Part shown: positions 38,599-64,000 of the stretch, piece after piece
Position numbering within the stretch: position 1 is the first letter of the stretch
Layout: each line of letters starts with the position of its first letter
NCBI GenBank assembly: GCA_017996625.1
Contig: JAGOGO010000002.1
Coordinates: 1,017 to 65,016 of the forward strand
DNA: 64,000 nucleotides
DNA from: Deltaproteobacteria bacterium
GTDB lineage: Bacteria > Desulfobacterota > WTBG01 > JAGOGO01
Direction of reading: 5' to 3'
Notes under the pieces: generated by a model
The model's input: only the letters and a program-made list of their open reading frames with translations
Databases searched by the model: none
Told to the model about the DNA's origin: nothing
Position numbers and translations under genes: made by a program

Positions 38599-38684
38599 CG
38601 CCGGAGTGGTGAAACTGGTAGACGCAGGGGACTCAAAATCCCCCGGCCCTTGCGGCCATGTCGGTTCGATTCCGACCTCCGGCA
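38599..38684 (+). tRNA. tRNA-Leu (anticodon CAA), 86 nt, class II
   Basis: GCCGGAG TG GTGAAACTGGTAGACGC AGGGGA CUCAAAA UCCCC + long variable arm GGCCCTTGCGGCCATGTC + GGTTCGATTCCGACC TCCGGC A. The left boundary of the downstream defence island abuts its 3' end. Confidence 0.8.
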
Positions 38685-38985
38685 TAACAAAATCAATAGG
38701 TTATCACTGAGCGTGATAGCCTTTTTTTGTGGCTACTCCTCATTGTTAGCCGATTGGTTAGCCAAGTTTCCAAAAATAGTCGAGGGTCGGACCACGATAC
38801 GCACTTGCGATACAAGAAGAATCGCTCTAAAACAGGGCTATTTTGAGCCTTAGACCTGTGTTTTTGACCTTGGAAATGTCATTTTAAGATGGACGACTCT
38901 GCCTCACGAGCGTGGACTAGGACGTGGAAGGGAGGTGGGGCGAAGAGCATAGCTTGATCCGATCCCAGAATTATTCCCCCACTGA

Positions 38986-40011
38986 TCATCGGGAATCCTT
39001 AGCTTTCAGCAGGTGCTCACCACGCAAAGTCAGCAGGTATTTCTGATTGCGGCTGCGAGGTGTGTCAGGATGAATCATTTCGATCAAGCCTGCTTCAAGG
39101 GCAGGATGCAGGTAGTTCTTGCGGAACGAGTGCCTATGCGCCAGCCTCAGTTCTGCCATAATATCCGCAGCGCTTCGCTGCGATTTTCGCAAGGAGTTAA
39201 GCAGACGAATTACTTGGTCGCTTACTTGGTCGCTTACTTGGTCGCTCTCGAGGTCCGCTTCTTCAATTGCTTGTCGAATGGCACTGAGCATGAATTCAAC
39301 AAAGGCAGTGGAATCTGCCTCGCTATCGGCACGGCGCAGCACGGTGTAGTAATCCTGCTGACGATCGCGGATGATGCTCTCCACCTGAAGAATGGAAAAG
39401 ACCTGCTGCCAGCGACTGAGGATCAAGGTCTGCCAAAGCCGTCCGAGTCGGCCATTTCCATCTTCGAACGGGTGAATGAACTCGAATTCATAGTGAAATA
39501 CGCAACTCGCAATGAGAGGGTGCTCCTCCGTGCGTTTAAGCCACAATAGCAGATCATCGACCAACACGGTCACCCGATCGGCAGGAGGAGCGACATGTAC
39601 AATCCTCCTGCCGCGGTGAATAGCGACGCCGCCGGAACGAAACCGTCCGGCTTCGTCGGTCAATCCGGCCATCAACAGACCATGGGCAGCAAGCAGATCC
39701 CTGCGAGAGTGCGGTGACCAGCTCGACAGTTGCTCGTAGGCGGAAAAGGCATTGCGAACCTCCTGAATTTCACGGGGGAGTCCCAATACCCGTTTGCCTT
39801 CAACGATCGCAGTAACCTGCTCCAGACTGAGAGTATTGCCTTCGATCGCCAGCGAGGCCTGAATGGTTTTTATGCGGTTACCGCGCCTTAGAAGCGGGAC
39901 AGCCGCGCTGCCTGAGCACGAGCGAAGCTTGCCCAATGCCTCGCCGATCTGCTCGACGAGATGAAGAATTGCGGAGGTAATGTGATACGGAGGTATGTAT
40001 CGGTCAGTCAT
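38986..40011 (-). CDS. Fic/DOC-family protein (AMPylase-type, HPFx[DE]GNGR motif)
   Basis: HPFEDGNGRLGRLWQTLIL. Start ATG 40011 (M30 of the ORF-track ORF). Tandem SDQVSDQVSDQV near the C-terminus is encoded by the direct repeat gcttacttggtc x3 at 39212-39247. Confidence 0.8.
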   Translation of the reverse strand: MTDRYIPPYHITSAILHLVEQIGEALGKLRSCSGSAAVPLLRRGNRIKTIQASLAIEGNTLSLEQVTAIVEGKRVLGLPREIQEVRNAFSAYEQLSSWSPHSRRDLLAAHGLLMAGLTDEAGRFRSGGVAIHRGRRIVHVAPPADRVTVLVDDLLLWLKRTEEHPLIASCVFHYEFEFIHPFEDGNGRLGRLWQTLILSRWQQVFSILQVESIIRDRQQDYYTVLRRADSEADSTAFVEFMLSAIRQAIEEADLESDQVSDQVSDQVIRLLNSLRKSQRSAADIMAELRLAHRHSFRKNYLHPALEAGLIEMIHPDTPRSRNQKYLLTLRGEHLLKAKDSR

Positions 40012-40233
40012 TGATTGGTCTCCGAACTCTGAAAAATGCCCAGGTTCTCTGAACCTCTTCAAAATCCAGGTGGCGTCCTGACCTTGAGCTGTTGCCACAA
40101 CATCGGCAGCATCACCATCTCAGTGAACGTTTCGCAGAAGGTAGCAACGGTTAGATGCTGTTATATTCCGTGCGTCGTTCATAGCAATCTTAGCCTATCT
40201 TCATCACATAAAATATAACATTTCGGCGATACG

Positions 40234-40527
40234 TCAAAGAATTTCAGGAGACGCCTCGGTCAAAGCACGTAGTCTGCTGGTGAACATTTTCCCGTCCTCG
40301 GTTCGAAGTTTGACTTTCTCCACCTGATCGTCTTCCATCCAGTCGTTGATGACCTTGAGCTGCTCGCGCAGCACCGGCAACATCGCCATCTCAGTGAACG
40401 TTTCGTGGCTGGCCAGGTCGAGAAAATCTTCTGGGGGTGAAGACAGAACCCCTCCCGGAACCATATATTCTCGAAAGTGTTTTAGCATCAAACGCTTGAG
40501 AGATAGCAGACGTGCCTCCTGATTCAC
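40234..40527 (-). CDS. hypothetical protein
   Basis: 97 aa with no family recognised. A degenerate duplicate of its internal segment (…ETFTEMAMLP…) lies at 40094-40145. Confidence 0.3.
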   Translation of the reverse strand: MNQEARLLSLKRLMLKHFREYMVPGGVLSSPPEDFLDLASHETFTEMAMLPVLREQLKVINDWMEDDQVEKVKLRTEDGKMFTSRLRALTEASPEIL

Positions 40528-40729
40528 GAATCATATCTAATTTTCGTGAATCGATAAAGCCTTATTCCTGCACCGAATTGCCTCAAATACAGTGTTACCC
40601 AAAAGGGGATGGGGGAGAGATCGTTGCCTCATAATAGATGTTACCGCCTCGGCCTCTTACCGGAGGGGACACATCATGGGCCTACGATCAAAAAGGAGGA
40701 CTCTCCTGGGGTCGAGCCCAATCTGTCAT

Positions 40730-40935
40730 CGGGCAGTTAAAACCGGCCACCGAGGGGTGAATCATAAGCGGCCATTTCGCCCGCCGGCTCTCTCCGTATG
40801 CTGAATTGTGATGCTGGGCTATACTGGGCAACGACACACCGTCGGTTCTTGAATGTCGCATCACGATAGACATTCTGGTGGTGAACCTTCTGTGTCCCAG
40901 AAGTTAAGTATTGTGTCCCCAGAATTCTCCCAGGT
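40730..40935. repeat. IS21-like terminal-repeat fragment family, copy 1 (about 200 bp)
   Basis: Shares gcagttaaaa..gcggccatttcgcc...gggcaacgacacaccgtcggttcttgaatgtcgcatcacgatagacattctggtggtgaaccttcTGTGTCCCagaagttaagtatTGTGTCCCCagaattctccc with 43001-43180 and 49315-49530. The tandem TGTGTCCC motifs resemble IS21-type multiple terminal repeats. Confidence 0.6.
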
Positions 40936-40936
40936 T

Positions 40937-41827
40937 TTATCTCTGCGTGGCATTGTCCGCCGCCAAGGGAAACAATTCCTGCAAGGCCGACACGAATTCA
41001 TCGAGCTGCAACTCGGGGCGATAGTAAGCACTTTCCCTTAATCGGACCATGCCCAGGCGGTTTGGGGTAGAAAAGTACTCGAAGACCAAATCACCCGCCT
41101 CTGATACATAAGGCTGGGAACGATACTGATCTCTCAGCACAAGGGAATGCCGCCATTCTTCTTCTGATGTCGTCGCGAGAATCGAGTAGAGGTCCAGAGC
41201 ATGATAGCGCCCGAATTCGCTCGTAGAATCGTTGAGCCGATCTCTGAAAGCAAAAAGCTTCATCATCAGATAAGTGTATGGATGGGGGATGAAAACCTCA
41301 GCGTTAAAAAGATTGCCTGAAGTAAGTTTCCCCCTGAGAAACACAGGCAAGAGGCCATCCTCTAGAGTAGGTGCCTCGTCAACCGGGTGAGCATGAATGC
41401 CAACGGACGGACTGGGACGTACCCGGCGCGCATCCACTTTTGCCCGTGTGGCTCGAAACCTGGTTTGCGGACCAGTGAGTATGTCTATCTTGATGCTGCC
41501 CGCGATGTCTCCCCGCGGACCGGGTTTGACGAACTGGTATTTTTCCGCACCGGGAACAACCCTGTAGCCTAACCTGTCAATGGCCTCGGCCAATGGTTTC
41601 AGTCTTGCCGATTCTATGAGCACTTCCGCTCGAAGGAAAAGGTCAATGTCGTTCGTTGACCGAGCTTCTGGCCATTCCTCCAGCAGCGTACGAATACCCA
41701 GCCGTTTCACATGCTCCATCTTAAGGTAGATACCGAAGCCTCCACCAATGATGAGTTTGATGTCTGAGCCTTCTATCTCATACAGCAAATCCAGCAGTGA
41801 TGTTTGAAGGTCGGGAATGGTAATCAT
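40937..41827 (-). CDS. nucleotidyltransferase-fold protein, AbiEii/DUF1814-like (type IV TA toxin family)
   Basis: LIIGGGFGIYLKMEH...RSTNDIDLFL matches the AbiEii GG.A...[R].[ST].DIDF minimal NTase motif. 296 aa. 4 bp overlap with the upstream partner. Confidence 0.5.
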   Translation of the reverse strand: MITIPDLQTSLLDLLYEIEGSDIKLIIGGGFGIYLKMEHVKRLGIRTLLEEWPEARSTNDIDLFLRAEVLIESARLKPLAEAIDRLGYRVVPGAEKYQFVKPGPRGDIAGSIKIDILTGPQTRFRATRAKVDARRVRPSPSVGIHAHPVDEAPTLEDGLLPVFLRGKLTSGNLFNAEVFIPHPYTYLMMKLFAFRDRLNDSTSEFGRYHALDLYSILATTSEEEWRHSLVLRDQYRSQPYVSEAGDLVFEYFSTPNRLGMVRLRESAYYRPELQLDEFVSALQELFPLAADNATQR

Positions 41828-42915
41828 CGATGAACTTGATTGAGGTTATTTATTATGTATGATCTCAGCTGCTCGGCGGTCTCTTGGTCGCGCTTGTCAC
41901 CGGCCTTCAGCTCGAGGTATACCTGTATTGGGGATGCCCACCAGAAATTCCCCTCATACCGGCTATCAAAGAAAACCGTTTCATCCTCGGTTTCCACAAG
42001 TTCGAGGTTCGGGAAACGATCGGACTGGCTTCCTGGTACCCTCTCTATCAGCACATCAAGCCGAGGGCAATAAACAGACAAGAGAGGCCCGCGTTCCATG
42101 ACAGCATACCGTTTCACCGATGATGTCCCAGTAGCCACCATAGGTAAATCCAAGGATTGCGACGCTTCACGTAACAATTCCGTAATCGGTCCCGTTTCCT
42201 CGGAAACCTTGAGACGAACCCGTGTCCTGATGTTGGGAGAAGCGTAGCTTTCACTCAGCTTTTGCAGAAGCTTGTCTGGTTGCAGAAGCCGAATGGCGCC
42301 TTCACGGGTAATGATCAAGTCCTCTTGCAGCGTTTTCAATACCTTCGAAACTGTGGAGATGCTCATCGGGGTTTTATCCCAGCGCTCCGCCAGCAGGTTC
42401 CTTCGGTTTATCTCCAGCCAGACATCTTGAACGGTGTCATAGAGGGAGCGGGCAAGAAAGACCCTTCCTACCATGGAACTGTTTCTGCGATAGATATTCT
42501 TGATCGGAGCAGAAGAAGTGAAGCGATTCTTCCCGCCGCTGCGGAAGACGGAAAACTTGCCCGGTGAAATCACGACACCATTCCCACAGAGATCGATCCC
42601 GCTGATGCCATCCTTCTCAAGCTCCAGCAATTGCTGGTCGTTGAGAAAAGGCACAAACAGCATCAGGTTGTATCCTTTAGGCAGTTTCACCGCCTTCAGC
42701 CGGTTTATTCCATCCTGAAACGACTTGGGAGTCGAAAGCGCTTTGCACTCGACCACGAATCGTGCTTTATCTTTACCCCACGATGCCTCAACAAGCGCAT
42801 CGAAGCGGCTGTTTACCCCTTTGTCTAGCTCACTCTGCAAAAGACGAAAGGAGAGCGGGGGTAGCGATACTTCGCCTTTCTGCAGCTGCTTGATCATTTC
42901 TTTTTCCGTAGGCAT
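41824..42915 (-). CDS. putative AbiEi-like partner protein (antitoxin/regulator) of the NTase
   Basis: Position and translational coupling only. The 363 aa sequence has no motif I recognise, and is larger than a typical AbiEi. Confidence 0.3.
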   Translation of the reverse strand: MPTEKEMIKQLQKGEVSLPPLSFRLLQSELDKGVNSRFDALVEASWGKDKARFVVECKALSTPKSFQDGINRLKAVKLPKGYNLMLFVPFLNDQQLLELEKDGISGIDLCGNGVVISPGKFSVFRSGGKNRFTSSAPIKNIYRRNSSMVGRVFLARSLYDTVQDVWLEINRRNLLAERWDKTPMSISTVSKVLKTLQEDLIITREGAIRLLQPDKLLQKLSESYASPNIRTRVRLKVSEETGPITELLREASQSLDLPMVATGTSSVKRYAVMERGPLLSVYCPRLDVLIERVPGSQSDRFPNLELVETEDETVFFDSRYEGNFWWASPIQVYLELKAGDKRDQETAEQLRSYIINNLNQVHR

Positions 42916-43000
42916 TTTCCTAATCTCCTATTTTTTCCTATTCAAGAAAATAGCCTCAATTAGGAAAATATGCAAGCATCATTTTTAGGTTTCCCCCAAT

Positions 43001-43180
43001 GGTGTCATCGGGCAGTTAAAAGCGGCCATTTCGCCCACCGGCTCTCTCCGCGTGCTGAAGTGTGGTACTGGGCTATACTGGGCAACGACACACCGTCGGT
43101 TCTTGAATGTCGCATCACGATAGACATTCTGGTGGTGAACCTTCTGTGTCCCAGAAGTTAAGTATTGTGTCCCCGGCATT
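43001..43180. repeat. IS21-like terminal-repeat fragment family, copy 2
   Basis: See copy 1. It lacks the 24 bp insertion present in copy 1. Confidence 0.6.
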
Positions 43181-43347
43181 TCGGACATCAGCCTGCAGTC
43201 GTTTTTAAATTCTTTCTGTGACGGGTTTGACGGGTTTATGATGGGTTTGGCGTTGTGTTTTTGGCAAAAAGGCTTCTGCCGATTGAGGTGCGCTGTCGGT
43301 CGATTATCGGTCGATTTCGTGAGCTGGTCAACTACCGTCATGCTCGT

Positions 43348-43560
43348 AAGGCAACAAACAGAGTCAGCCCCTGAAAAGGGACATGCTCTGCATGGTCGGC
43401 CCACCTTCTCTTCGTGGCGACGATCGGTCATCACTATCCATCAATACACAGCTCTGCAGCCTTTAGCTATCCTTCGTTCTCGTTTTTCGTCTTCTGCTTC
43501 GTGAATACAGCTTAGCACCTACGATGTGCTATGTCGGGACTGACCCTACTGCCGTTCCCC
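43348..43560. repeat. ~200 bp repeat (aacaaacagagtcagccc...cactatccatcaatacacagct...cagcacctac..atgt..gccgttcc), copy A
   Basis: Near-identical blocks at 47795-48000. Both lie immediately downstream of an IS21-like fragment in the same orientation, bracketing the McrBC cassette. Confidence 0.75.
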
Positions 43561-43863
43561 AGTTACAACGAGTTGTTTGATGATTGACTTTGCGAATAGG
43601 ATACGCCGTCAGCTCTTACTGCTGTCGCCTTGAGGTTTACGATTAACAAATTCTGCTTTACGATTACTTAACGATTCGCCCAGCATTTTCACGCGGTATC
43701 GAGTGGAGCGACCAGCCCCAACCCTATCACCAAAAGCATTATTTGCCTGTCCCTATGATCCCTAATAAGCAACCAAGAAAGCGATTGATCATCTTTTTCG
43801 AAGCCTATAGTTCTTAATAAGACCTGACGCTTTAAGCCGCAGCAACGAGCCACTTGTACCAAT

Positions 43864-45090
43864 TTATTGCTGCAAGTGACTTACTCCTAATGTCTGAAGT
43901 AAATTCCCCATGAACATCTGGCCGGCAGCCTCGAGGTCTCCAGATAGTGCGAAGGCCATGGTTCTCACTCTAATTTTTTCACCAACCTTTTCATTCATCG
44001 AGGCATCTAGAGGAACCGGATAAATCAGTATTGCTTCCTCACAGTTCTTCATCTCTGCATAGGTCACAACTTGTGTCACATCATGCGCCTCCGGTTTGTG
44101 CTTCGCCTTGTATTTGGTATCGAGGACACAGAGGGCCTTGTCAGTATGAGCATCATACAAAACGAGATCGATCTGAAACGAAAGGTCGTTGTTCTCGCCA
44201 ACCGTAACGGTCTCCTGCTTTCCTAATCTGATGCTCGCGGGCAGATGAGTTCTTAGCCACTCCGCGACAAAGAGTTCATACAGCCTTGCCATATCCACCA
44301 CAAATGGGAGCATTGTCTTATCGCCCGAATGATGTGTCGGACCGCTATGCTCCAGAAAAAAGCGGCAGAGGGCATGCAACGGTCGATAATCTTCATTGAG
44401 CCGGTTATATAACCGTTTGATACAATTCCTAGGGGAAACCGCGTTCAATGATGCAAAGCCGCGAAGTGCATGGAAGGCGCGACGAACTGTCGGCAGCACT
44501 CGCTCAGTGCAGATTCCGCTGCGAGCGATAAGCGCCATAGTCCAGCAGAGGATCTGATTTTCTTCGATGTCAGCAGTATGCTCCTGATAATGACAGTGCA
44601 CCTTAACGTCCCAGGGACTCTTAATACATTGAGGAACATCCACTCTGCCCCTGATAAAAGGGAGTTGATCGTTCTCATTCAAGTATGTTCGATACAAGCC
44701 CTTGCGGCTCCTGTCGAGTATCCGCTGGGCTAAGATATTGGCTAAGCGTTCATAAAACTCCTGGATAGAACTGCAGCCGGTAAGACCTTCGAGGATCTGA
44801 AAACTATTCAGCTGGTAGGCGTACTCGAGCATACGAAAAATGTTGCTCAGTTCTACCTTTGGTTTGAGACTAATACCTAAATCTGGGGTGCAAGGCAAAT
44901 ACCCGACCCATCCCTGAGAACTAAGGAGCCACTGGTTTTCAGTCTTTGGGCTGGGGAAATCGACAGAAACCTTGTCCTTATATTTCTTCCAGATAAGCTC
45001 TCCCTCTTCAGGGGATAGTGCGTTAGAGGGAAACATCTGAGAGACATACTCAGTTAATGAGATAACTCTGCGTCCGCTCTCTTCATTCAC
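43864..45090 (-). CDS. mcrC: McrC subunit of McrBC modification-dependent restriction endonuclease
   Basis: PD-(D/E)xK core VLDTKYK. 408 aa. 4 bp overlap with mcrB upstream. Confidence 0.8.
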   Translation of the reverse strand: MNEESGRRVISLTEYVSQMFPSNALSPEEGELIWKKYKDKVSVDFPSPKTENQWLLSSQGWVGYLPCTPDLGISLKPKVELSNIFRMLEYAYQLNSFQILEGLTGCSSIQEFYERLANILAQRILDRSRKGLYRTYLNENDQLPFIRGRVDVPQCIKSPWDVKVHCHYQEHTADIEENQILCWTMALIARSGICTERVLPTVRRAFHALRGFASLNAVSPRNCIKRLYNRLNEDYRPLHALCRFFLEHSGPTHHSGDKTMLPFVVDMARLYELFVAEWLRTHLPASIRLGKQETVTVGENNDLSFQIDLVLYDAHTDKALCVLDTKYKAKHKPEAHDVTQVVTYAEMKNCEEAILIYPVPLDASMNEKVGEKIRVRTMAFALSGDLEAAGQMFMGNLLQTLGVSHLQQ

Positions 45091-47039: not shown

Positions 47040-47101
47040 AAGGGACTCCTTTTCAATACGTCATGCACAGTGTCATTGGTTTTCAGCACCAGTTCCCATG
47101 A

Positions 47102-47521: not shown

Positions 47522-47794
47522 TTCAATATCTCTTCGTTTCCATCTTTACGTGAAGAGGAATTGGGGTGGTTCATCCCATTGCTGCATTAAGTATGGTGTC
47601 CTCAGAATTTCCGTATCACAAGAATTTTCCCCACTACTCTTAGAGCTTCGTTTTTGGCAGCAAAACAGGGCTTCTAAAGCGATGTTTGAGCCTCTTATTC
47701 AGCAAAGCTAATGTAATTTCAATTCCTTATCCAGGTCCGACCCGGGAACCGACGCGTCTCAAGTCCGGGCCTGACCCCGGACAGTTTTCCGAGG

Positions 47795-49049: not shown

Positions 49050-49079
49050 CCGATAGTGGATATCTAACGAAAGCTAACT

Positions 49080-55934: not shown

Positions 55935-55947
55935 AAAAAAGTCCGAT

Positions 55948-56916
55948 CTAACTCGTTTGCCTAAAATGTGAAATCAATGCCTTGTATTTTTGCTTATTGT
56001 GGTGGATGTAATGATCATTAAACATTATTGTCCAACGATCCCGATCCATGCCACGAACGTTTGCCGTCTGTCTATAGGCAATCGCGAGCCGAGGTTCGTG
56101 CGCGCAAGTGCGGTAATAGACATTGTGGCCGTATTGCTTTTTTTCAATCAGCTTCAAGGATTTCAGTAAACTCAAATATTTGCTTAGTTGATATCGTTCA
56201 TACCGTATATCCAGCCATTCGAGAAATTTGTTTAATTCATCTAAAGATGCGAGCTGCACAGTCTCCAGCAGATCGAGCATTAGTAGCATGACATGCCCTA
56301 ACTTATCTCTGCTGAACGATTCGGACTTTGGCAATTCCAAAAGAATTTTCATTACTGTCTCTGCGAGGTCTTCCACATCAAAGAAATCATCCTGCGTGAC
56401 CGACTCGTCATTATTATCCTTGTTCCTCCAAGTATATACTGTAACTGGGCTATCTTTGCCGTTCTTTTCTGCAATCTTCATAATATGCAGGATGGGTCCT
56501 CGCCAAATAAAAGATTTCTTTTCCCAATGATCTTTGTGCATGACTACCAGAAGTCTTTCCCGAATAGTATCCAGTACTGCAAACGAACCGAGCTCAGCAA
56601 TTGAGCCAGGGCTCTCCGAGAAAATTATTGTCAAAGCAGATAGCTCAGCCAAGTCTCTTTCAAAGTCAAGAAGGTCGGTGTATTCTGAGTGGTAAAAATA
56701 GTCGAAAACATCCTCTGCTAATACAATGTCCTGGCGATACATGTATTTGCTCTGACAGATATATTTGCAAAAGGCATCGCGACAAGAGTGCGGGGCTTTG
56801 TGGGAGTCTGTGATTTCACCACCACACAGGAAAACGAAGGAAGGCAACTTGACGACACGGCTCTTCGTCAAGTCAATTGATGATATCCATTCTCTGTATA
56901 TTGGATCTATTTCCAA
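55948..56916 (-). CDS. retron accessory/effector protein with N-terminal nucleoside 2-deoxyribosyltransferase-like (NDT) fold
   Basis: VFLCGGEI... and ESPGSIAELGSFAVL resemble the NDT family D.G[TS].FE.G.A catalytic-Glu motif. 322 aa with a TTG start. It lies 14 bp upstream of the RT, the Sen2-like arrangement msr/msd - effector - RT. Confidence 0.45.
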   Translation of the reverse strand: MEIDPIYREWISSIDLTKSRVVKLPSFVFLCGGEITDSHKAPHSCRDAFCKYICQSKYMYRQDIVLAEDVFDYFYHSEYTDLLDFERDLAELSALTIIFSESPGSIAELGSFAVLDTIRERLLVVMHKDHWEKKSFIWRGPILHIMKIAEKNGKDSPVTVYTWRNKDNNDESVTQDDFFDVEDLAETVMKILLELPKSESFSRDKLGHVMLLMLDLLETVQLASLDELNKFLEWLDIRYERYQLSKYLSLLKSLKLIEKKQYGHNVYYRTCAHEPRLAIAYRQTANVRGMDRDRWTIMFNDHYIHHNKQKYKALISHFRQTS

Positions 56917-56920
56917 TAGA

Positions 56921-57085
56921 ATGCTCTTTACTTAGAGGCAGGCATGGTGGCCTTCCTCGGCTTACCGACGGTGAGCCGAGGAAGGCCACCATGCCGGTAA
57001 GTGTTATCAATCCGTAAAAGTCCAGCGGAACGCCGGACAAAGCCTAAAAACTGCTTATCCTCTAAAGAGCAAGTTCTATCCTTGC
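56921..57085 (-). ncRNA. candidate retron msr-msd non-coding RNA
   Basis: Read on the minus strand. A TTGACA -35-like hexamer sits at about 57100. It is followed by a1 GCUCUUUAGAGG (57070-57059). The msr hairpin is GUCCGGCG-UUC-CGCUGGAC. A perfect 22 bp stem GGCAUGGUGGCCUUCCUCGGCU / AGCCGAGGAAGGCCACCAUGCC with an 11 nt loop (56943-56997) is the proposed msd. An imperfect a2 CCUCUAA(GUA)AAGAGC (56938-56923) abuts the effector start. Confidence 0.4.
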
Positions 57086-57197: not shown

Positions 57198-59972
57198 TTA
57201 TTTAACCGGTACCCTCCCGCTCAAACCCAAATCTCCGAGTATGAGCTTGAGGTCTGACTCGAAGCTCTGTGCCTGGTTCTTCTCAACCGTTACGGAAAAA
57301 CAGATACTGATCTTCAAGTCCGATCCGCTGCGCAGCTTCGGGAGAATCTTTGTCCCCAGTCGATTCCAGACTTCAGGCGGAATCTCACCGGAAATCTGGA
57401 ATGTGCGGGTTCCTGCACCAGGTATAACCTCCGGCTCGGTTCCTTCTCCTGACTGAGTGCCGATCACATCTATAACTTCTGGTCGAGGTTCCGGACGCTG
57501 GGTGGGCTCAGGTTCATGAGCCGGCCCTGAGCTTGACTTTAACGCCTTGGCCTTCGATTTCAGAAGAAGAAATACTCCCTGATCGAAAATGATTTCTTCT
57601 GACGGGACTGCCTCCTGAAACCAGACCCGATCATAGGAGCCGTCTGTCTTCTGACCTGAGGCGAATCCAAAGTCCCCCTTATCCACCCAAGCAGCTATTC
57701 TGCTGCGCAGGACAGTGTCTGGATCAAGGAGGCGCGTCAGTGATCCATTAAGGAAGCTTTGCCGGAGACTGGTCAGAGGCCAGGCACCGGAGTCTCTCAA
57801 GGCAGGGGGCCAATTGCGTTCAACATAGCTGGCTCCTACTGATTCATTCAGCAAAGCCTGCGACTTGAGCGCAGTGATAACCCGGCCGCACAGAGTCTCT
57901 CCACTGCTGGAGTGCCCAGCTCCGAGGTCAATAGTCTTTAATCCGTTCGGCTCCTTGCTGTCAGCAATGACTACAAAGCGATAGCCTCCCCATACTTCGT
58001 CGTGGGCTGCTTCTTCGCCTTCAGTCGCCTTTGTCCGCACCTCCAATCTATCTTCAGGACTGAATTCTCCTCCCAGTGTCTTCTCTCTGATTTCCTTATC
58101 TACTCGTTTCCAGGCCAACCATAGTTCAATCTTGTCACGCAAATCGCGGCCGGGCTTTTTCACACACCACACAAGCGAGCCCGGATAGAGCCTGGGTGAC
58201 TTTCCCCTTTGCTTGGTCCATTCGGCAATTTGATCAACAAGGCTCCCCTTACCCGTCCATTCGCATGCAGGGTCAAGCACCACAAGCGTCAGCTTGGGTG
58301 TATCTTGAATCTCGGTGCCGTCGGATGGAAACTGGACAAGGGGAATGGTTGCTCCACGCTCAAACTCTTTTTGAACAACAGCGCGCATGGCCGGTTTGAC
58401 ATCGTTCTCATCATCCAGGGACGCGCGTCGGTCGTTCACAACCTTTTTCATCGTCGGCTGGTAGCCGATTCTGAATCCGTCGGAACCGATGCGTCGAATG
58501 AAATATGATTTGTCTTCGAGAGCGAAAGCGGCATTGTCCACCGACGTGGTATCGATCTCCGGCTCACCAAGGGCAAAGCGCAATTCGGGCAGGTGCGCCA
58601 CTTTATCCACCTGGCCACCGGAAGACTCAAAGAGAATCGCAGTGGCTACCCGTCGATGAATATCGCGCAATGCCGCTTTTGAGTCAGCATCGAGGGCGCG
58701 GGCATGAGAATGATCGCCGGCAATATCAGCATCAATAGCGGCCTCAAGGCGTGATTCCCCAAGTTGGCCGAGAACAACACTGCGGAATTCCGCCACCTCC
58801 AAAGGAGCCGATCCAAGAGTGATAAGCGCCTCGTTGCGCGCGTCATAGAAATTAGTGCGGCTAGCCCAGGAAATCCACTGGGCAAGCATGGCAAGGGTTC
58901 CACGCGTCTGCTGGTACTGCGGCAATGCCTGCCATTTTCTCTGGAAAACCGACAGGGTCGCGGGGTGAAATGGATAACACGTCTCAAATCGCTGCTGCAA
59001 ATATTCTTTGGCTTTTGCTTCCGTGGCTGCGGTGTCAACGGCCATCCATTCAGGCGGAAGCTGGGCACGGCGTTGGAAGCACCATTCGGCGTAAGTCTTC
59101 GCCACAGTCTTGCGAACTCGGTCTTTCCCTATGTCCTCAAACAACCGCCGGCGAATCACTTCGCTTATTTCAGTTTCGTCGTTTGCGATGAGATCCTTGG
59201 CCACACGTCGAACCACCTTTGTAATCTTATTCTGCCATGCCATGTCCCAGTCGGTCATTTCCACCTGGCTTCGCGGCAAACTTATGACTGCTGCTCCGTG
59301 AGTAGTACCCGTAGTTGCAACCGTCAAGTTCTGAATAAAGGAATGGAACTGATCAGCCATATCTCTATGCCGATTCAAGAAGTTCAGTACTTCATCGAAG
59401 AGAATGAGCACCGGGGCTTCAGCAGCCTTAAAAATCCGATCAAGCGCTTCGGTACCTGGGGGCGTATTCCTTGCCGATGTTCCGAGCTCCCTGACTCCCT
59501 TATCACCCGCAAGCTGCCGAGCAATATCAATCCACGGTGTCTCGCGACCTTCTTGCGGATCCCAAGCATTGCCGACAAATGCAGCGACTTTCGCATGCGG
59601 CACTGCGCTTATTGTTGCCTCATATACAAGATCAGCGACACCAGTATACTCGGCTGCCTTTTCACCGCTACTCATCAAATGGTAAAGAGCTGCAAGTGTG
59701 TGCGTCTTGCCGCCACCGAACTGAGTAATAAGGGTCATGACGGGTGCCGTATTCGCTGTCTCGCCCGAAAGCCGACGCATCACCATGCCGGTGTGCTCTC
59801 TGAGTGCCCGAGTGAAGCAGGTACGAGCAAAGAATTGCTTCGGATCGCGATAATCTTCCGGAGCAGTTTTGGCAATCACCTGTTCCAGATGAATGGCAAA
59901 CTCGTCCGGGTTGAACGAACGCCCTTGTCTGACTTCTTTACGAGGGGTAGTGCTTTTGTACCACGGGTCCAT
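57198..59972 (-). CDS. DUF499-family P-loop ATPase (COG1483-like), 924 aa
   Basis: Walker A TQFGGGKTHTLAALYHL, Walker B PVLILFDEVLN. The large size and the pairing with a DUF1156 methyltransferase match the DUF499 context. The DUF499 assignment itself is from memory of the family. Confidence 0.55.
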   Translation of the reverse strand: MDPWYKSTTPRKEVRQGRSFNPDEFAIHLEQVIAKTAPEDYRDPKQFFARTCFTRALREHTGMVMRRLSGETANTAPVMTLITQFGGGKTHTLAALYHLMSSGEKAAEYTGVADLVYEATISAVPHAKVAAFVGNAWDPQEGRETPWIDIARQLAGDKGVRELGTSARNTPPGTEALDRIFKAAEAPVLILFDEVLNFLNRHRDMADQFHSFIQNLTVATTGTTHGAAVISLPRSQVEMTDWDMAWQNKITKVVRRVAKDLIANDETEISEVIRRRLFEDIGKDRVRKTVAKTYAEWCFQRRAQLPPEWMAVDTAATEAKAKEYLQQRFETCYPFHPATLSVFQRKWQALPQYQQTRGTLAMLAQWISWASRTNFYDARNEALITLGSAPLEVAEFRSVVLGQLGESRLEAAIDADIAGDHSHARALDADSKAALRDIHRRVATAILFESSGGQVDKVAHLPELRFALGEPEIDTTSVDNAAFALEDKSYFIRRIGSDGFRIGYQPTMKKVVNDRRASLDDENDVKPAMRAVVQKEFERGATIPLVQFPSDGTEIQDTPKLTLVVLDPACEWTGKGSLVDQIAEWTKQRGKSPRLYPGSLVWCVKKPGRDLRDKIELWLAWKRVDKEIREKTLGGEFSPEDRLEVRTKATEGEEAAHDEVWGGYRFVVIADSKEPNGLKTIDLGAGHSSSGETLCGRVITALKSQALLNESVGASYVERNWPPALRDSGAWPLTSLRQSFLNGSLTRLLDPDTVLRSRIAAWVDKGDFGFASGQKTDGSYDRVWFQEAVPSEEIIFDQGVFLLLKSKAKALKSSSGPAHEPEPTQRPEPRPEVIDVIGTQSGEGTEPEVIPGAGTRTFQISGEIPPEVWNRLGTKILPKLRSGSDLKISICFSVTVEKNQAQSFESDLKLILGDLGLSGRVPVK

Positions 59973-60082
59973 ACGCTTATCTCCTTAAAGCGGACGATAC
60001 CAGGAGCGCTTTCTCATCGCCAAAACATTCGGTCCCAAATCACAAAAATCACAAAAAGGGTGTTCTCTTGTGATTTTTGTGA

Positions 60083-61252
60083 CTATTTTAATTCTCGCCG
60101 CTTGATATACTCTGCGAATAAAGGATCGGCGATGCGATACTGACCGCGTCCGATTCGCTCAACTAATCCTTTTTCCGTAAGCCGCTTAAGCACTTCCGCA
60201 GCGTTCTTTACCTTTGCGCTGCGCTTCTCAAGGGTTCGCGGGCTCAGAACGGCATCATTTGTAGCCAGCACTTTGAGCGCTGTCATTTCTTGAACACTGG
60301 CACGCCCCACCATCCCTTCAAATTGCGCATCAGCCAACGCCAGAAGTGTATGGTAAAGTGCGGTTTCCCAATTTTCCATGGAAACCCTGCCTTTGACTTG
60401 CTGATCAAAAAGGGCTTCGCAGAGTGCCTGTACTTCGAAAACATGCCCACGAGTGATATCGAAAATATTTTCTTTCACACCTTTCTCAAAAACGACTCCC
60501 GATTCTCGCAGGGAATCATCGATAAGCCTGAAGGTCTCGGTCTTCGCAAAAGAGCCCAAAGGCCTGCGAGGCATAAACAATCGCCCGAGAGGATGATCCC
60601 GTACCAGATACGGTTTCCATGCTTGCTCGATTGAACTAATGACCATGAGGATTTTTGTTTGTCCAAGAATACGCTCATCAGTAAGCACATTCCTCAAGAG
60701 GGTAAGCTGCTGTCCCTCTGTCGAGAGATTGTGGACATCGTCAATCAATATGACCAATGAGCGCGCTCCATGCCTTTCGGCGTGTTCATGCAGCCGCATC
60801 AAGCCATCGCGCAGTACTAACTGCGGGTCTTGATTCGCAGAGGCATTTCGCCACTGCAACTGAAATCCAAAGCCGAGCACACTCGCACCTGCACCTTCAA
60901 CACGCTTTGCAAAAGGCTCCTTCTTCTCTGGCAGAATAGGCAAATCAGACGCCGTCATATCGAGCACATGGCGAGCGAAATCCGTGAGGCCTTCCTGAGC
61001 GGCAAATGCCCGGGTACTGAAAAGGAGAGCCCACGCTCCCTCGGTTCGAGCGACCAACTTCATCTGCCGGAGAAGAACCGTCTTTCCGATGCCCCATGTC
61101 CCCGTGATAACGTAGTGTTGAAATCTGCCATGGAAAGCGTTGCTCAACCGTTGTTTGAAGAACGCTACTTCCTCATCCCGGCCAATGAAAACTTTTGGGT
61201 CCATGCCGGATCTTGCTGTAAACGGATTGACAAGCATCTTCTCTCCTCTCAT
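60083..61252 (-). CDS. AAA ATPase of the archaeal-ATPase (PF01637-like) type with C-terminal wHTH
   Basis: Walker A VITGTWGIGKTVLLRQ, Walker B LVILIDDVHNL. The C-terminus LTEKGLVERIGRGQYRIADPLF is a wHTH. Confidence 0.55.
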   Translation of the reverse strand: MRGEKMLVNPFTARSGMDPKVFIGRDEEVAFFKQRLSNAFHGRFQHYVITGTWGIGKTVLLRQMKLVARTEGAWALLFSTRAFAAQEGLTDFARHVLDMTASDLPILPEKKEPFAKRVEGAGASVLGFGFQLQWRNASANQDPQLVLRDGLMRLHEHAERHGARSLVILIDDVHNLSTEGQQLTLLRNVLTDERILGQTKILMVISSIEQAWKPYLVRDHPLGRLFMPRRPLGSFAKTETFRLIDDSLRESGVVFEKGVKENIFDITRGHVFEVQALCEALFDQQVKGRVSMENWETALYHTLLALADAQFEGMVGRASVQEMTALKVLATNDAVLSPRTLEKRSAKVKNAAEVLKRLTEKGLVERIGRGQYRIADPLFAEYIKRRELK

Positions 61253-61258
61253 GCTACC

Positions 61259-63999
61259 TCACCTAGGCACAGCCAGCAGCATTGCATCGAGCAATCGTTT
61301 CTCCTCACTCCCCTTCGGATAGAGCGCCGAGAGGGCATTAGCCAAACGGAGAAAATCCGGGCTGCGCTCCTGCTCGGCCTTAACCAGCGCCCGTAAGGCA
61401 TTGGTCTGTCCGCCAGACTGCAGCAGCATCGCAGCATGCACGCGATCAAGCGTGGTAATATTTCGCTGGTTCTGAAAATCGGCAGCAGCCGGGTCCAAGA
61501 CAACTCCTTTCCGCTGCCCTCGAACGCGAAGCTTCGGTGCCTGCTCTTTCTCCAATTCAGGAAAGAGAACACGCTGCAGGTTTTTCATAGGCTGCTTCTC
61601 GATGATATCAGCAGAGGCTCTAGCGCCTTCTTCGCCAAAAAGTTGCTTGCTGCGGTCGGCAATGCCCAAGAGCCTGATCACGCCCTTCTCAGTCTTGATT
61701 ATGCGGTTCTCCCACTTGGGAAGATCAATCCCGAGCGGCTGCGCAAAGCGGCGGACTACATCGAAGACGAGACTATATCCTTTAGCCTTCCCTTTCGGAG
61801 TAGGTTCTTCATCATCCTCGTCAAGCTCTTCTTCCTCTTCAACATCTTGGCTTTTACCTTTGCTCTTTTCATTTTTGTCTTCAGCATTGGTGGCCTGCAA
61901 CGTCCATAGGAATAAGGCTGTTAAACGCGCATCCTCTTCCAATACACCTGCCATACCATTTCGGGCACGAGCTTCCTCAGTGCCGAGAATCTGTTCCAGT
62001 GCCGTGCGGCCCACTACCTCCCAGACCTTCTCCAGGTACTCAGCAAGCTTGACCTCGCGACCTTCGGCAGTCTCCACCTTTGAGTACCGGCTGAAGATTT
62101 CGAGAGCCGGTCCGATACAGGCGAACACCAGATCCGCCCCTCGAATCCCTTCGCCCTGCAAGCACTCCATCCAGTCCCCTACCCGATTTGGAAGTTCACG
62201 AAGCACCTCCGACCAATCGCCCACGGATGCGTCCTCTGGACGTGGACGACAGACGAGGTGGACACTGGTGGCGAGGGCAGCTGTGTCGCGTGCCAGTAGT
62301 CGAGCTCCCCTCTCTGTTGCAATGGGCCAGGAACCTGTGATTGCCCAACCGCCGCGGACGATGCCTGAAAGAAGTGCTTCCCATCCTTCGGTTGTCTTGT
62401 GCGCAAACACTACAGAGGCAATCCCATCCTCCTTCAGTACTCGCCGTCCTTCTGAGAAAGCCTGAGCCATGGCGTCTTCGTAGTACTGTCTGTCTTTGAC
62501 ACGCCCCGTGGGGTCACGATCCTTTTGAGATTGGATGACCTCGGCAGCTTTGGGAGTGAGGGGGTTGGATGCCTCATAAGGGTCTCGCAGTAGCGGGTCT
62601 CTCGCCATCATCCGTTTCAGCCACACGAAGAAGAAATCGGAGAGGTCAGAATAAGGGATTGCGTCATAGTACGGCGGATCAGTGAACCAAACTGTAGCCG
62701 AGTCATTTGGCAACGGATGATTTGTGGCGTCTGCCAGCTGCGTTTGTCCCATCTTGGGTATCCCACTTGCGATCTGCGAAACAGCTCCCACCAGTTCGTC
62801 AATTGCGTTTCCCACCCCCCCGCGAACTCAGATAGCGGATAGAACTCCGGAAAATCCCATGACATAGGCAGCGCATGTCTGCCGAACGCCCCAGCGACTG
62901 TCTGACTGCCTTTGTGCCAAAAGGCGAAAGCATTGCAATGTCGGATGGTTTTGCCAAGCACGAGAGACGGAAGTCCGCTTTTCCCCACTATTACTCCAAG
63001 CAGTGTGTGTACCAACGCCTGTCGAAGTGAAAATAGGTCTCCAAATACCCGTGCCCCATAGCGTGTGACCGCGGAAAGACCACGAGCATTTGCAGAAGGG
63101 CGCTGTGGATCAATGGGTTCATCTGGCAATGGGCATGGGCCTTTCTTGCCCGCCTTTTCCCATTGGTGAACAAGAAGATTCATCCGCTGATGTGCCTTCC
63201 ACACCGCTTGATAGTCTTGTGTTGTGGGTTGACGGTACTTTCGCTCGCGGCTATTATTGCACATCGTAACAACCGCTAGCAGTCTCGCCCCACCAATACG
63301 GTTGCCATTTGTATCAAAAATCACGTCTGGCCGGCCACCTTGCTCGGTGATTTGCTCACGAACGCGTTCTGATGAAAGGACAGCACCACAGGCAGGGCAC
63401 GTCGCCCTGCCATCCTTTATCGTTCTTTGCGCGATCTCTTGATGTTGGCCGCGTGCTGACGCCGCTATCTCGAACTCTATCTCGGGTCTTTTGCCATGCT
63501 TACGAATGACCGTGTGTCGAAGGCCACACTGCCAGCCACTGCTTTGGCAGAAGAGAAATGACCGCGCAAGCGGGATTTCCGCTCCGCAGTTGGGGGACTC
63601 GCATTTGACCGTTCTCGCCCAAAGGTAGGCTATCGGCGCGGCCCCGTCAGGGTCCTTGGGATAAAACTCAGCGAGTTCCTTCTCAGCCTGTTTCTTGATC
63701 TCACCGCCGACCCGGCGCAGTTCCTCGGCAAGCTCTGGTCCATGGCGTGGAATATCTTCCAGCAGGACTTTGAGAATGAGGCAGGCTACTGGATTGAGAT
63801 CGCTGGCAAATGCTTCACAGCCCAGTCTCAGAGCTTCCAGTGGGATCGATCCACCACCTGCAAAAGGGTCAACAACGAGCGGCGGTTCCTCACCATGCGC
63901 AGCCTTTACTAGCGTTCGTCCTGCTTCGGCATACATTGGGTTGCATGACAAATCCCAGTTTGCGAAGTCGCCTATAAACTCAAGCAATGCTTTCCTCAA
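61259..63999 (-). pseudogene. DUF1156-type Zn-ribbon DNA methyltransferase (COG1743-like) split by a -1 frameshift at a G7 homopolymer. N-part 62617..63999 (motif I, runs off window), C-part 61259..62815 (DPPY)
   Basis: N-part has VVDPFAGGGSIPLEA (FxGxG SAM motif) and CxxC pairs (CESPNCG, CPACG). C-part has WFTDPPYYD (motif IV). The two ORFs overlap by 199 bp in different frames. The frame change maps exactly to GGGGGGG at 62815-62821 (minus strand). One additional G would give the continuous product ...YPLSEFAGGVGNAIDELV.... Confidence 0.6.
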
Positions 64000-64000
64000 G

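What the first reader, a model, noticed from the sequence alone, without database searches (positions are those of the whole stretch)
38599..64000. tRNA-Leu(CAA)-anchored mosaic defence island (at least 25 kb, continues past window end)
From the 3' end of tRNA-Leu every gene is on the minus strand and is defence- or mobile-related. The run comprises a vapBC remnant, Fic, an AbiE-like pair, a repeat-bracketed McrBC cassette, a Hachiman-like nuclease/helicase pair, a full retron, and a DUF499/ATPase/DUF1156-methyltransferase module. It is interspersed with IS21-like end fragments and lower-GC patches. Several of these are single validated systems elsewhere, but this specific stacking has not, to my knowledge, been described as one unit. 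No integrase is visible, so the island is either old and degraded or the integrase lies beyond 64 kb.
Basis: partly seen in the sequence, partly recalled or inferred. Interest (0 to 1): 0.8.

Follow-up and report, generated by a model that had tools for sequence, protein, structure and literature searches.

The report
Ordinary mosaic defence island beside tRNA-Leu
Next to a tRNA-Leu gene, an uncultured sulfate-reducer-type bacterium carries a 27-28 kb patchwork of mostly already-known anti-phage systems, which is a typical defence island and not a new kind of system.

Summary
The observation largely holds. tRNA-Leu(CAA) lies at 38600-38684, and every real gene to its right is on the minus strand and is defence-related.

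Modules found:
- a SoFic-type Fic protein;
- a nucleotidyltransferase/HTH pair only distantly like AbiE;
- McrBC, bracketed by 217-nt direct repeats;
- Hachiman (HamB plus a divergent HamA);
- a complete type II-A (Sen2-like) retron;
- a DUF499 ATPase/DUF1156 methylase module that lacks its defining helicase.

Identical metagenome contigs show the island ends about 2 kb beyond the window. There a 5'-truncated HerA-like gene abuts a complete IS200-like element, followed by catalase. No integrase or attR exists, so "the integrase lies beyond 64 kb" is refuted.

Two sub-claims are wrong. The vapBC remnant lies upstream of the tRNA on the plus strand. The "IS21-like ends" have no IS21 signal. Their conserved tip is a 23-nt motif found in at least 118 metagenome contigs, where inverted copies flank RAYT-like Y1 transposase genes.

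Composition is mosaic: GC3 is 0.41-0.47 for Hachiman, the retron and two small genes, against 0.52-0.58 elsewhere. Nothing shows the stack acts as one unit.

Verdict: a new example of a known kind, of modest interest.

The parts
38228..38549 (+). vapB (38228-38458) plus truncated vapC' (38448-38549, 33 codons). It lies outside the island, upstream of the tRNA.
   Evidence: The first 27 residues are 67% identical to an intact 145-aa PIN protein next to lexA in relative L023, and homology stops at about 38528. vapB has a weak DUF6364 hit.
38553..38684 (+). tRNA-Leu(CAA) gene (38600-38684) with a consensus-like promoter, TTGACA-17-TATAAA, at 38553-38581.
   Evidence: ARAGORN; Rfam tRNA at 51.6 bits. 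The promoter was read directly from the sequence. A terminator-like hairpin lies at 38698-38722.
38986..40098 (-). Fic-domain protein, SoFic-type single-gene defence candidate.
   Evidence: Pfam Fic 1.7e-19 and Fic-like_C 4e-26. PADLOC SoFic 1.7e-44. The HPFEDGNGR motif is visible in the alignment.
40234..40527 (-). Small ORF (76-97 aa) of unknown function upstream of Fic. It contains one copy of a 56-nt duplication (40350-40405; the other copy is at 40079-40134).
   Evidence: No family hits. Duplication D4 is 86% identical. There is no protein-level similarity to Fic.
40717..40930 (+). Repeat A, copy 1. It ends in the 23-nt REP-like motif (40904-40926).
   Evidence: 95% identical to copy 2 and 91% to copy 3. 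Motif hits.
40937..42915 (-). Two-gene module: a 363-aa protein (41824-42915) with a conserved D39..E56-x-K58 motif (read here as PD-(D/E)xK-like) and a weak HTH signal, and a 296-aa nucleotidyltransferase-fold protein (40937-41827). It is distantly AbiE-like.
   Evidence: More than 1200 homologues each, 66-86% identical, with no Pfam domain. The pair is conserved in L144-L149, including inside a BREX operon. NTase motif GGGFG..NDIDLF. PADLOC AbiEii E = 0.036. Top fold hit is Rv1045/MenT3, E = 0.2. One homologue of the partner is named AbiEi by NCBI.
42995..43185 (+). Repeat A, copy 2. Its right edge (…CATTTCGGA) is the point where contigs L015/L016 diverge into a different sequence.
   Evidence: alternative junction.
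43349..43564 (+). Repeat B, copy 1, downstream of mcrC.
   Evidence: 78% identical over 217 nt to 47792-48005. No significant fold.
43864..47521 (-). McrBC cassette: McrC (43864-45090), McrB (45087-47039) and a 139-aa ORF (47102-47521).
   Evidence: Pfam McrBC 2.4e-41; AAA_5 1.3e-20. McrB_lid and DUF8426 are listed in precomputed hits. The 139-aa ORF has only a weak DUF6438 hit.
47578..48005 (+). Solo REP-like motif (47587-47609) and repeat B, copy 2 (47792-48005).
48132..49049 (-). 305-aa zinc-ribbon, probable membrane protein of unknown function, in a low-GC patch.
   Evidence: Zn_ribbon_3 2e-06; sequence; GC 0.415.
49089..49523 (+). Repeat A, copy 3. It is split by a 186-nt insert containing a short ORF (49184-49384) that reads like a helix-turn-helix protein but has no family hit. 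It is followed by a second REP-like motif (49497-49519).
   Evidence: The 66-aa ORF has no Pfam, NCBIfam or plasmid matches.
49577..54012 (-). Hachiman: HamB helicase (49577-53095) and a divergent HamA nuclease (53092-54012).
   Evidence: HamB 4.2e-68. HamA family: invariant D161, E180, K182. Fusions to a HamB-like helicase whose best PDB hit is 8vx9_B, 2e-33. The profile's top PDB hit is HamA 8vx9_A, E = 0.025. PADLOC HamA1 E = 0.04.
54491..54832 (-). 113-aa ORF of unknown function downstream of the retron RT.
   Evidence: No meaningful hits.
55008..57071 (-). Type II-A (Sen2-like) retron: RT (55008-55934), NDT/RcaT-like effector (55948-56741; the ORF extends to 56916) and msr-msd ncRNA (about 56922-57071).
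   Evidence: RT_II-A 7e-120 and NDT_II-A 8e-73. Pfam STM3845 on the effector. A 27-bp hairpin at 56941-56995. Fold with a1/a2 stems, z = -8.8.
57198..64000 (-). DUF499-centred BREX-related (Hma-like) module without a helicase: DUF499/HmaC (57198-59972), AAA_16 ATPase with a C-terminal wHTH (60083-61252), and DUF1156/HmaB N6-methylase (61259 to beyond the window; its start is at window-equivalent 64272). The methylase is frameshifted at about 62814 in this window.
   Evidence: HmaC 2.3e-93. The intact methylase scores HmaB 4e-102 and DUF1156 3.9e-23. The indel lies in a C7/C8 run.

Best explanation
This is a mosaic anti-phage defence island in an uncultured Thermodesulfobacteriota bacterium from anaerobic-digester-type metagenomes. 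It is about 27.4 kb to the IS200-like element, or about 27.9 kb including it. It lies between tRNA-Leu(CAA) and a catalase gene.

It holds six or seven independent modules, each working by its own mechanism. The mechanisms below are taken from what is known of each family and were not tested here:
- SoFic: AMPylation toxin.
- A distant AbiE-like NTase toxin with an HTH partner: likely abortive infection or toxin-antitoxin.
- McrBC: GTP-dependent cleavage of modified DNA.
- Hachiman: HamB helicase licensing the HamA nuclease.
- A Sen2-type retron: the RT-msDNA complex holds the RcaT toxin in check.
- A DUF499 ATPase/DUF1156 methylase remnant or variant.
- A truncated HerA-like ATPase.

The island was built piecemeal and has decayed. 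Both flanks carry truncated genes, and an IS200-like element sits at the right edge. No integrase or att repeat remains, and short repeats separate the cassettes. Shown here: gene content, boundaries, mosaic composition, repeats and truncations. Inferred: horizontal origin, order of acquisition, and current activity of each module.
For: - Gene identities.
- Retron ncRNA.
- Right boundary, from contigs 99.99% identical to the window.
- No attR and no integrase.
- GC3 is 0.41-0.47 for the 305-aa gene, Hachiman, orf113 and the retron. It is 0.52-0.58 for the other modules and 0.56 for upstream core genes.
- vapC is truncated relative to the intact gene in L023.
- The DUF87 gene is truncated exactly at the IS200 hairpin.
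- Three assemblies break at the tRNA 3' end and four at or near the repeats.
- An alternative junction exists at repeat A2.
- The modules occur in unrelated defence contexts elsewhere.
Against: - No close relative with an empty site was found. All contigs carrying the same lexA are 100% identical to the window, and the nearest other relatives lack the tRNA at this locus. Horizontal acquisition is therefore inferred from content and composition, not shown by comparison.
- About half of the modules have core-like GC3.
- The AbiE-like assignments rest on sub-threshold similarities.
- The activity of every module is untested. The methylase is frameshifted in this assembly.
Confidence: 0.8

Rival explanations
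1. The island is a single integrative element (genomic island or degenerate ICE/prophage) that entered the tRNA-Leu 3' end in one step through a tyrosine integrase and carried the whole stack as cargo. It later lost its integrase and attR.
For: It sits directly after a tRNA gene. Contigs break at the tRNA 3' end in three assemblies. The right edge is a deletion scar that could have removed an integrase and attR. All genes are co-oriented.
Against: There is no integrase and no repeat of the tRNA 3' end, even with 3 mismatches, in the window or the extension. GC3 differs strongly between modules. Internal repeats and an alternative junction point to several events. vapC is truncated upstream of the tRNA, not downstream.
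Confidence: 0.1
2. The island is a cassette array whose modules are swapped at the intergenic repeats (A, B and the 23-nt REP-like motif). The swapping would occur by homologous recombination between repeats or by a Y1 (RAYT-like) transposase acting on the motif.
For: Repeat copies lie between cassettes, all in one orientation, and only inside the island within the 64 kb. L015/L016 diverge exactly at the end of repeat A2. Repeat B brackets McrBC. In metagenomes the motif flanks Y1 transposase genes as inverted pairs.
Against: Only the 23-nt tip is shared with other genomes, and the rest of A and B is private to this genome. The motif is absent beside the same NTase/HTH pair in other genomes. 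No RAYT gene is seen in the window. Repeat A has no hairpin. The alternative junction is only 62 nt long and could be an assembly chimera at a repeat.
Confidence: 0.12
3. This is not an island at all but a vertically inherited, stable chromosomal region that happens to hold defence genes.
For: Several modules have core-like GC3. All sampled contigs are identical. No mobility gene is present except the IS200-like element.
Against: There are low-GC patches. Truncated genes lie at both borders. Relatives with the same lexA-dinB-dnaE2 cassette lack all of it. Homologues 70-86% identical to the NTase/HTH pair occur in other phyla, such as Chloroflexi, which indicates horizontal spread.
Confidence: 0.05

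Closest known systems
Defence islands at tRNA-linked integration hotspots (as catalogued for E. coli and other pan-genomes; from my own knowledge)
   Same: Several unrelated anti-phage systems are stacked in one orientation next to a tRNA gene. Composition is mosaic, and IS and repeat debris lies between the modules.
   Different: No integrase or att repeat survives. Both borders are truncation scars. The host is an uncultured Thermodesulfobacteriota bacterium with no sequenced close relatives, so variability could not be shown directly.
Hachiman (HamAB; PDB 8vx9)
   Same: A large DEAD/Ski2-type helicase, HamB (PADLOC 4e-68), is preceded by an overlapping gene of about 300 aa with an invariant D...ExK motif.
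   Different: HamA is too divergent for the Pfam and PADLOC thresholds. It is recognised only by a family profile (E = 0.025) and by fusions in homologues.
Retron-Sen2 / type II-A retrons (RT + RcaT/NDT + msr-msd)
   Same: The gene order ncRNA-effector-RT is the same. RT_II-A and NDT_II-A score very strongly, and the msd hairpin is flanked by a1/a2 repeats.
   Different: The ncRNA has no Rfam hit. An extra 113-aa ORF follows the RT.
DUF499-centred BREX-related (BR) / Hma systems (PMC12839542)
   Same: A DUF499/HmaC ATPase and a DUF1156/HmaB N6-methylase lie side by side.
   Different: The defining Swi2/Snf2 helicase(-nuclease) is absent. An unrelated AAA_16 ATPase sits between the two genes. 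The methylase is frameshifted in this assembly. No nuclease is evident.
AbiE / MenTA type IV toxin-antitoxin (AbiEi + AbiEii)
   Same: A two-gene operon with an HTH protein first and an NTase-fold protein of about 295 aa second, the genes overlapping by 4 nt. It sits in a defence-locus context.
   Different: No AbiEii or AbiEi model reaches threshold. The partner is longer (363 aa) and has an N-terminal D..ExK motif read here as PD-(D/E)xK-like.
REP/REPIN-RAYT systems (PMC3116915, PMC5581495)
   Same: In other metagenome contigs, a short motif occurs as inverted doublets and flanks a Y1 (IS200-like) transposase gene in inverted orientation.
   Different: The identical 23-mer occurs in contigs with GC from 0.32 to 0.65, which is unlike the lineage-specific REPs described. 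In this island only solo copies occur, all in one orientation, and no RAYT gene is seen.

Membership tests
tRNA-integrated genomic island | Lies directly 3' of a tRNA gene | tested here: met
   The tRNA-Leu gene ends at 38684 and the first island gene ends at 38986.
tRNA-integrated genomic island | Tyrosine integrase at one end | tested here: not met
   No integrase domain was found in any ORF from 38685 to the catalase gene.
tRNA-integrated genomic island | Direct repeat of the tRNA 3' end (attR) at the far border | tested here: not met
   The 22-mer, allowing up to 3 mismatches, matches only the tRNA itself in the window and has no match in L001.
tRNA-integrated genomic island | Absent or different in close relatives | tested here: inconclusive
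   All contigs with the same lexA are identical to the window. Relatives at 68-81% LexA identity lack the tRNA at this locus. Contig breaks at the tRNA 3' end hint at variation.
Hachiman | HamB SF2 helicase | tested here: met
   PADLOC HamB 4.2e-68 and Pfam DEAD 3.5e-20.
Hachiman | Adjacent HamA (DUF1837, PD-(D/E)xK nuclease) | tested here: inconclusive
   It falls below curated thresholds (PADLOC E = 0.04). Supporting evidence: invariant D161/E180/K182; the profile's top PDB hit is HamA, E = 0.025; five homologues are fused to a HamB-like helicase.
Retron type II-A | Retron-clade reverse transcriptase | tested here: met
   RT_II-A 7e-120 and RVT_1 5e-18.
Retron type II-A | NDT/RcaT-like effector next to the RT | tested here: met
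   NDT_II-A 8e-73. Pfam STM3845 in precomputed hits.
Retron type II-A | msr-msd ncRNA with flanking a1/a2 repeats upstream | tested here: met
   Fold of 56917-57197(-): a1/a2 stem, short hairpins and a 27-bp msd stem, z = -8.8. There is no Rfam family hit.
McrBC | McrB AAA+ (AAA_5) GTPase plus McrC nuclease as adjacent genes | tested here: met
   AAA_5 1.3e-20 and McrBC 2.4e-41, with genes overlapping by 4 nt.
SoFic | Single Fic-domain protein with the HPFx(D/E)GNGR motif | tested here: met
   SoFic 1.7e-44; HPFEDGNGR.
Hma / DUF499-centred BR system | DUF499 ATPase | tested here: met
   HmaC 2.3e-93 and DUF499 6e-15.
Hma / DUF499-centred BR system | DUF1156 N6-adenine methylase | tested here: met
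   The intact copy in L001 scores HmaB 4e-102 and DUF1156 3.9e-23. The window copy is frameshifted.
Hma / DUF499-centred BR system | Swi2/Snf2 helicase (HmaA), usually fused to a nuclease | tested here: not met
   No SF2 helicase lies between the retron and the catalase gene. Only AAA_16 and a truncated DUF87/HerA-like gene are present. The definition is taken from PMC12839542.
AbiE (type IV TA) | AbiEii (DUF1814) nucleotidyltransferase toxin | tested here: not met
   No Pfam hit; PADLOC AbiEii E = 0.036. A profile search against PDB found nothing. A low-confidence model gave the top fold hit Rv1045/MenT3, E = 0.2, TM 0.40.
AbiE (type IV TA) | AbiEi wHTH antitoxin encoded upstream | tested here: inconclusive
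   No AbiEi model hit. There is a weak Crp-type HTH hit. One 69%-identical homologue is named AbiEi by NCBI. The gene order matches.
IS21 | IstA transposase / IstB ATPase remnants or IS21-type inverted ends | tested here: not met
   The ORFs in the repeats have no hits. No inverted partner of the ends exists. There is no DNA match in plasmids.
Integron / CALIN cassette array | attC sites (imperfect palindromes folding as hairpins) between co-oriented cassettes | tested here: not met
   Repeat A folds no better than shuffled sequence (z = 0.48), and repeat B likewise (z = -0.87).
REP/REPIN-RAYT | Motif flanks a Y1 transposase gene in inverted orientation and forms inverted doublets | tested here: met
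   This holds in metagenome loci, not in the window. Examples with the motif on both sides of the gene are L119, L062, L081 and L082. All 20 close inverted pairs share one configuration. Pfam Y1_Tnp 4e-12.
REP/REPIN-RAYT | A cognate RAYT gene and many REP copies in the same genome | not testable with these tools
   Only 64 kb plus 4 kb of this genome is available. All four motif copies lie inside the island.

The most novel reading that the evidence does not exclude
The intergenic repeats are the working junctions of an integrase-free cassette platform. Their tip is a 23-nt motif that elsewhere forms the inverted ends of RAYT-like Y1-transposase units. Under this reading, defence modules are inserted, deleted or swapped at these motifs by an HUH/Y1 enzyme or by recombination between the repeats. 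This would explain the co-oriented cassettes, the alternative junction at repeat A2 and the lack of any integrase. A separate and more likely novelty is that the conserved 363-aa (D..ExK motif plus HTH) / 296-aa NTase pair, also found inside a BREX operon, is an unrecognised defence or abortive-infection module.
Probability: 0.1. Interest if true: 0.7.

Novelty: new member of a known kind. Interest (0 to 1): 0.3.

Why it matters
As a defence island it adds little. Stacked SoFic, McrBC, Hachiman, retron and BREX-related modules next to a tRNA are the expected pattern, and there is no evidence that they cooperate.

Its value is as a catalogue entry for a poorly sampled phylum and as a source of three leads:
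1. A very widespread, highly conserved NTase/HTH gene pair with no Pfam family, which rides inside BREX and other defence loci.
2. A helicase-less DUF499/DUF1156 module whose methylase carries a poly-G tract that differs between assemblies.
3. A 23-nt motif shared by contigs of very different GC content, which flanks Y1 transposase genes.

Tried and rejected
- E. coli synteny (leuX): no match.
- GTDB species representatives: only LexA relatives at 42% identity or less.
- IS21 hypothesis: Pfam and NCBIfam on the ORF inside repeat A3, plus blastn and tblastn against plasmids, were all negative.
- attC/integron hypothesis: the repeats do not fold.
- Repeat A as a decayed RAYT gene: tblastn found nothing.
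- First metagenome scan with a 26-mer from the repeat A core: no hits, so that collection does not hold the source samples.
- Rfam on the island: only the tRNA was found, with no retron or other RNA family.
- AlphaFold models of the pair were of low confidence (pLDDT 59 and 51). I ran a fold search only on the 296-aa model and treat its result as a hint.
- Profile searches of the pair against PDB sequences: nothing.
- AAA_16 ATPase in viral contigs: nothing. In plasmids it has only distant standalone homologues. I could not show that HerA/AAA_16 belong to the DUF499 module. The DUF87 homologues sit in unrelated defence contexts, so I treat the truncated DUF87 gene as a separate module.
- The promoter and terminator scan gave no more sites than shuffled sequence.

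Full report
**What is there**

ARAGORN and Rfam place tRNA-Leu(CAA) at 38600-38684 on the + strand. Every long ORF from 38986 to the window end is on the minus strand. Independent gene calls on identical public contigs give the same picture.

Pfam and PADLOC scans identify the following, moving away from the tRNA:
- a Fic protein of the SoFic type (38986-40098; SoFic 1.7e-44; HPFEDGNGR motif);
- an unannotated pair of 296 aa and 363 aa (40937-42915);
- McrC and McrB (43864-47039), plus a 139-aa ORF;
- a 305-aa zinc-ribbon protein;
- HamB (49577-53095; 4e-68), with an overlapping 306-aa gene upstream;
- a 113-aa ORF;
- a retron RT of type II-A (7e-120) with its NDT/RcaT-like effector (8e-73);
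- DUF499/HmaC (2e-93), an AAA_16 ATPase, and a DUF1156/HmaB methylase.

**Source and host**

Thirteen metagenome or MAG contigs carrying the same proteins are 99.95-100% identical to the window. NCBI labels the LexA of one source MAG as Thermodesulfobacteriota. GTDB species representatives contain nothing closer than 42% LexA identity.

**Right end of the island**

Contig L001 extends 3929 nt beyond the window. It completes the methylase, which is 1004 aa (HmaB 4e-102). After it come a DUF87/HerA-like gene, an IS200-like element, and a catalase gene on the opposite strand.

Homology of the DUF87 gene to 713-aa and 765-aa plasmid homologues starts only at their residues 132 and 151. It starts exactly at the terminal hairpin of the IS200-like element. 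The gene is therefore 5'-truncated, and the right border is an IS-associated scar. In window-equivalent coordinates the island spans 38685 to about 66036, with the IS reaching about 66540.

No integrase domain occurs anywhere. The 22-nt tRNA 3' end has no second copy, even with 3 mismatches, in the window or in L001. 'Old and degraded' fits.

**Left end of the island**

vapB (38228-38458) and a 33-codon vapC' (38448-38549) lie on the + strand upstream of the tRNA. Relative L023 (LexA 72% identical) has the same lexA-vapB arrangement with an intact 145-aa PIN gene. Homology stops after residue 27.

A consensus-like promoter (TTGACA-17-TATAAA, 38553-38581, read) and the tRNA follow directly. Relatives with the lexA-dinB-dnaE2 cassette have no tRNA-Leu nearby. 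The rearrangement point is thus inside vapC, not at the tRNA 3' end.

The only support for the tRNA 3' end being a variable boundary is indirect. Three independent assemblies end at 38646-38686.

**Individual modules**

Hachiman:
- The 306-aa protein misses curated thresholds (PADLOC HamA1 E = 0.04).
- Its family has 290 clusters at 50% identity and has invariant G105, D161, E180 and K182.
- Five homologues are fused to a DEAD/Ski2 helicase whose best PDB match is HamB 8vx9_B (2e-33).
- A profile of the unfused members has HamA 8vx9_A as its top PDB hit (E = 0.025), aligned at the catalytic region.
- I accept it as a divergent HamA.

Retron:
- The strand upstream of the effector folds with a1/a2 stems, small hairpins and a 27-bp msd stem (z = -8.8).
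- Rfam has no match.
- The effector carries the Pfam STM3845 family, which from memory is the effector gene family of Retron-Sen2.

DUF499 module:
- The 2026 NAR survey (PMC12839542) defines these BREX-related/Hma systems by three genes: a DUF499 ATPase, a DUF1156 methylase and a Swi2/Snf2 helicase, usually fused to a nuclease.
- The helicase is absent here.
- The AAA_16 ATPase has only distant, standalone plasmid homologues.
- The DUF87 homologues sit in other defence contexts.
- I therefore read this as a remnant or variant, not a canonical member.
- In the window the methylase is split by loss of one base in a C7/C8 run at about 62814. Five other assemblies have C8. This is either an assembly error or phase variation.

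**The 'AbiE-like' pair**

Neither protein reaches any Pfam, NCBIfam or PADLOC threshold. Each has more than 1200 homologues, and the top 120 are 66-86% identical. All lack Pfam domains and occur in MAGs of different phyla.

The pair is conserved as an overlapping operon in three other settings:
- between PglX and PglZ inside a type 1 BREX operon (L145/L146);
- next to a DUF499 locus (L144);
- next to an integrase and an ISL3 transposase (L147-L149).

Features of the two proteins:
- The 296-aa protein has an NTase signature, GGGFG...NDIDLF.
- It has a sub-threshold AbiEii hit over that motif (E = 0.036).
- From a low-confidence model (pLDDT 59), its top fold match is the AbiEii-family toxin Rv1045/MenT3 (E = 0.2, TM 0.40).
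- NCBI names one 69%-identical homologue of the partner as AbiEi.
- The partner also has a conserved D39...E56-x-K58 motif.

It probably works like AbiE. It is not a member by any tested criterion.

**Repeats**

Three families separate the cassettes. All copies are in one orientation, and all lie inside the island:
- Repeat A (about 165-210 nt, 91-95% identical) lies upstream of the Fic, NTase-pair and zinc-ribbon cassettes.
- A 23-nt tip, TTAAGTAT[G/T]GTGTCCCCAGAATT, occurs four times, one copy degenerate.

There is no IS21 signal and no hairpin of the attC kind.

The 23-mer has at least 118 exact hits in metagenome contigs, where about one is expected by chance. Those contigs range in GC from 0.32 to 0.65. 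There it forms inverted doublets: all 20 close inverted pairs share the same configuration. It also flanks genes of about 220 aa with a Y1_Tnp domain on both sides. RAYT-like genes were found in 27 of the 118 loci. This is a REP/REPIN-RAYT-like architecture (PMC3116915, PMC5581495).

Only this tip is shared with other genomes. The rest of A and B is private to this genome.

Contigs L015/L016 are identical to the window for 8.5 kb. They then diverge exactly at the end of repeat A2 into 62 nt not present in the window. This is either an alternative cassette junction or an assembly artefact at a repeat.

**Composition**

GC3 is 0.41-0.47 for the zinc-ribbon gene, Hachiman, orf113 and the retron. 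It is 0.52-0.58 for Fic, the pair, McrBC and the DUF499 module, and 0.56 on average for upstream core genes. This supports several acquisitions of different age and argues against a single unit.

**Verdict**

This is a genuine but ordinary mosaic defence island, a new member of a known kind. Two items were wrong (the vapBC position and IS21) and one was over-stated (AbiE). The 'integrase beyond 64 kb' option is refuted, and there is no evidence for a functional super-unit. I score interest at 0.3. The leads worth keeping are the unannotated NTase/HTH pair, the helicase-less DUF499 module with a variable poly-G tract, and the widespread 23-nt Y1-transposase-associated motif.

Noticed in passing
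window 40904-40926, 43158-43180, 47587-47609, 49497-49519; loci L026-L143: The 23-nt motif TTAAGTAT[G/T]GTGTCC[C/T]CAGAATT has at least 118 exact hits in unrelated metagenome contigs with GC from 0.32 to 0.65. It often occurs as inverted doublets or tandem copies. It flanks RAYT-like Y1 transposase genes on both sides, forming units of about 750 bp.
   Followed up: partly
window 43185/43186; L015 and L016 nt 1-62: Two assemblies are identical to the window for 8.5 kb. They then switch, exactly at the end of repeat A2, to 62 nt not found in the window. This is either an alternative cassette junction in the population or a chimera at a repeat.
   Followed up: partly
window ~62814 (run 62814-62820): The DUF1156 methylase is frameshifted by a C7 run in the window, against C8 in five other assemblies. 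This is either phase variation of the methylase or a homopolymer error.
   Followed up: partly
window 38448-38581: vapC is cut after about 27 conserved codons, and a near-consensus promoter for tRNA-Leu follows within a few bases. A relative (L023) has the intact vapBC next to lexA and no tRNA.
   Followed up: yes
L001 1390-3627 (window-equivalent 64303-66540): A complete IS200-like element (TnpA about 143 aa, with terminal hairpins) abuts a DUF87/HerA-like gene that lacks its first ~131 codons. The catalase gene starts on the other side.
   Followed up: yes
L145 4931-6882; L146: Homologues of the 363/296-aa pair sit inside a type 1 BREX operon, between the PglX methylase and PglZ.
   Followed up: partly
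window 32848-38126: A lexA - dinB (Pol IV) - dnaE2-like error-prone polymerase cassette lies directly left of the island. It is conserved in relatives L022-L025.
   Followed up: partly
window 40079-40134 and 40350-40405: A 56-nt direct duplication (86% identical) spans the Fic start region and the middle of the upstream small ORF. The two copies are read in different frames, so it is a DNA-level repeat and not a protein duplication.
   Followed up: partly
window 38646-38686, 40913, 43043, 43185: Public assemblies of this population repeatedly break at the tRNA 3' end and at or next to the repeat A copies.
   Followed up: partly
window 10001-11240: A second tRNA gene, tRNA-Ser(CGA), lies at 11150-11240(-) next to a low-GC kilobase (GC 0.44). 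It could mark another variable region.
   Followed up: no
window 49184-49384: A 66-aa ORF inside the 186-nt insert of repeat A3 reads like an N-terminal helix-turn-helix protein. It has no database match.
   Followed up: partly
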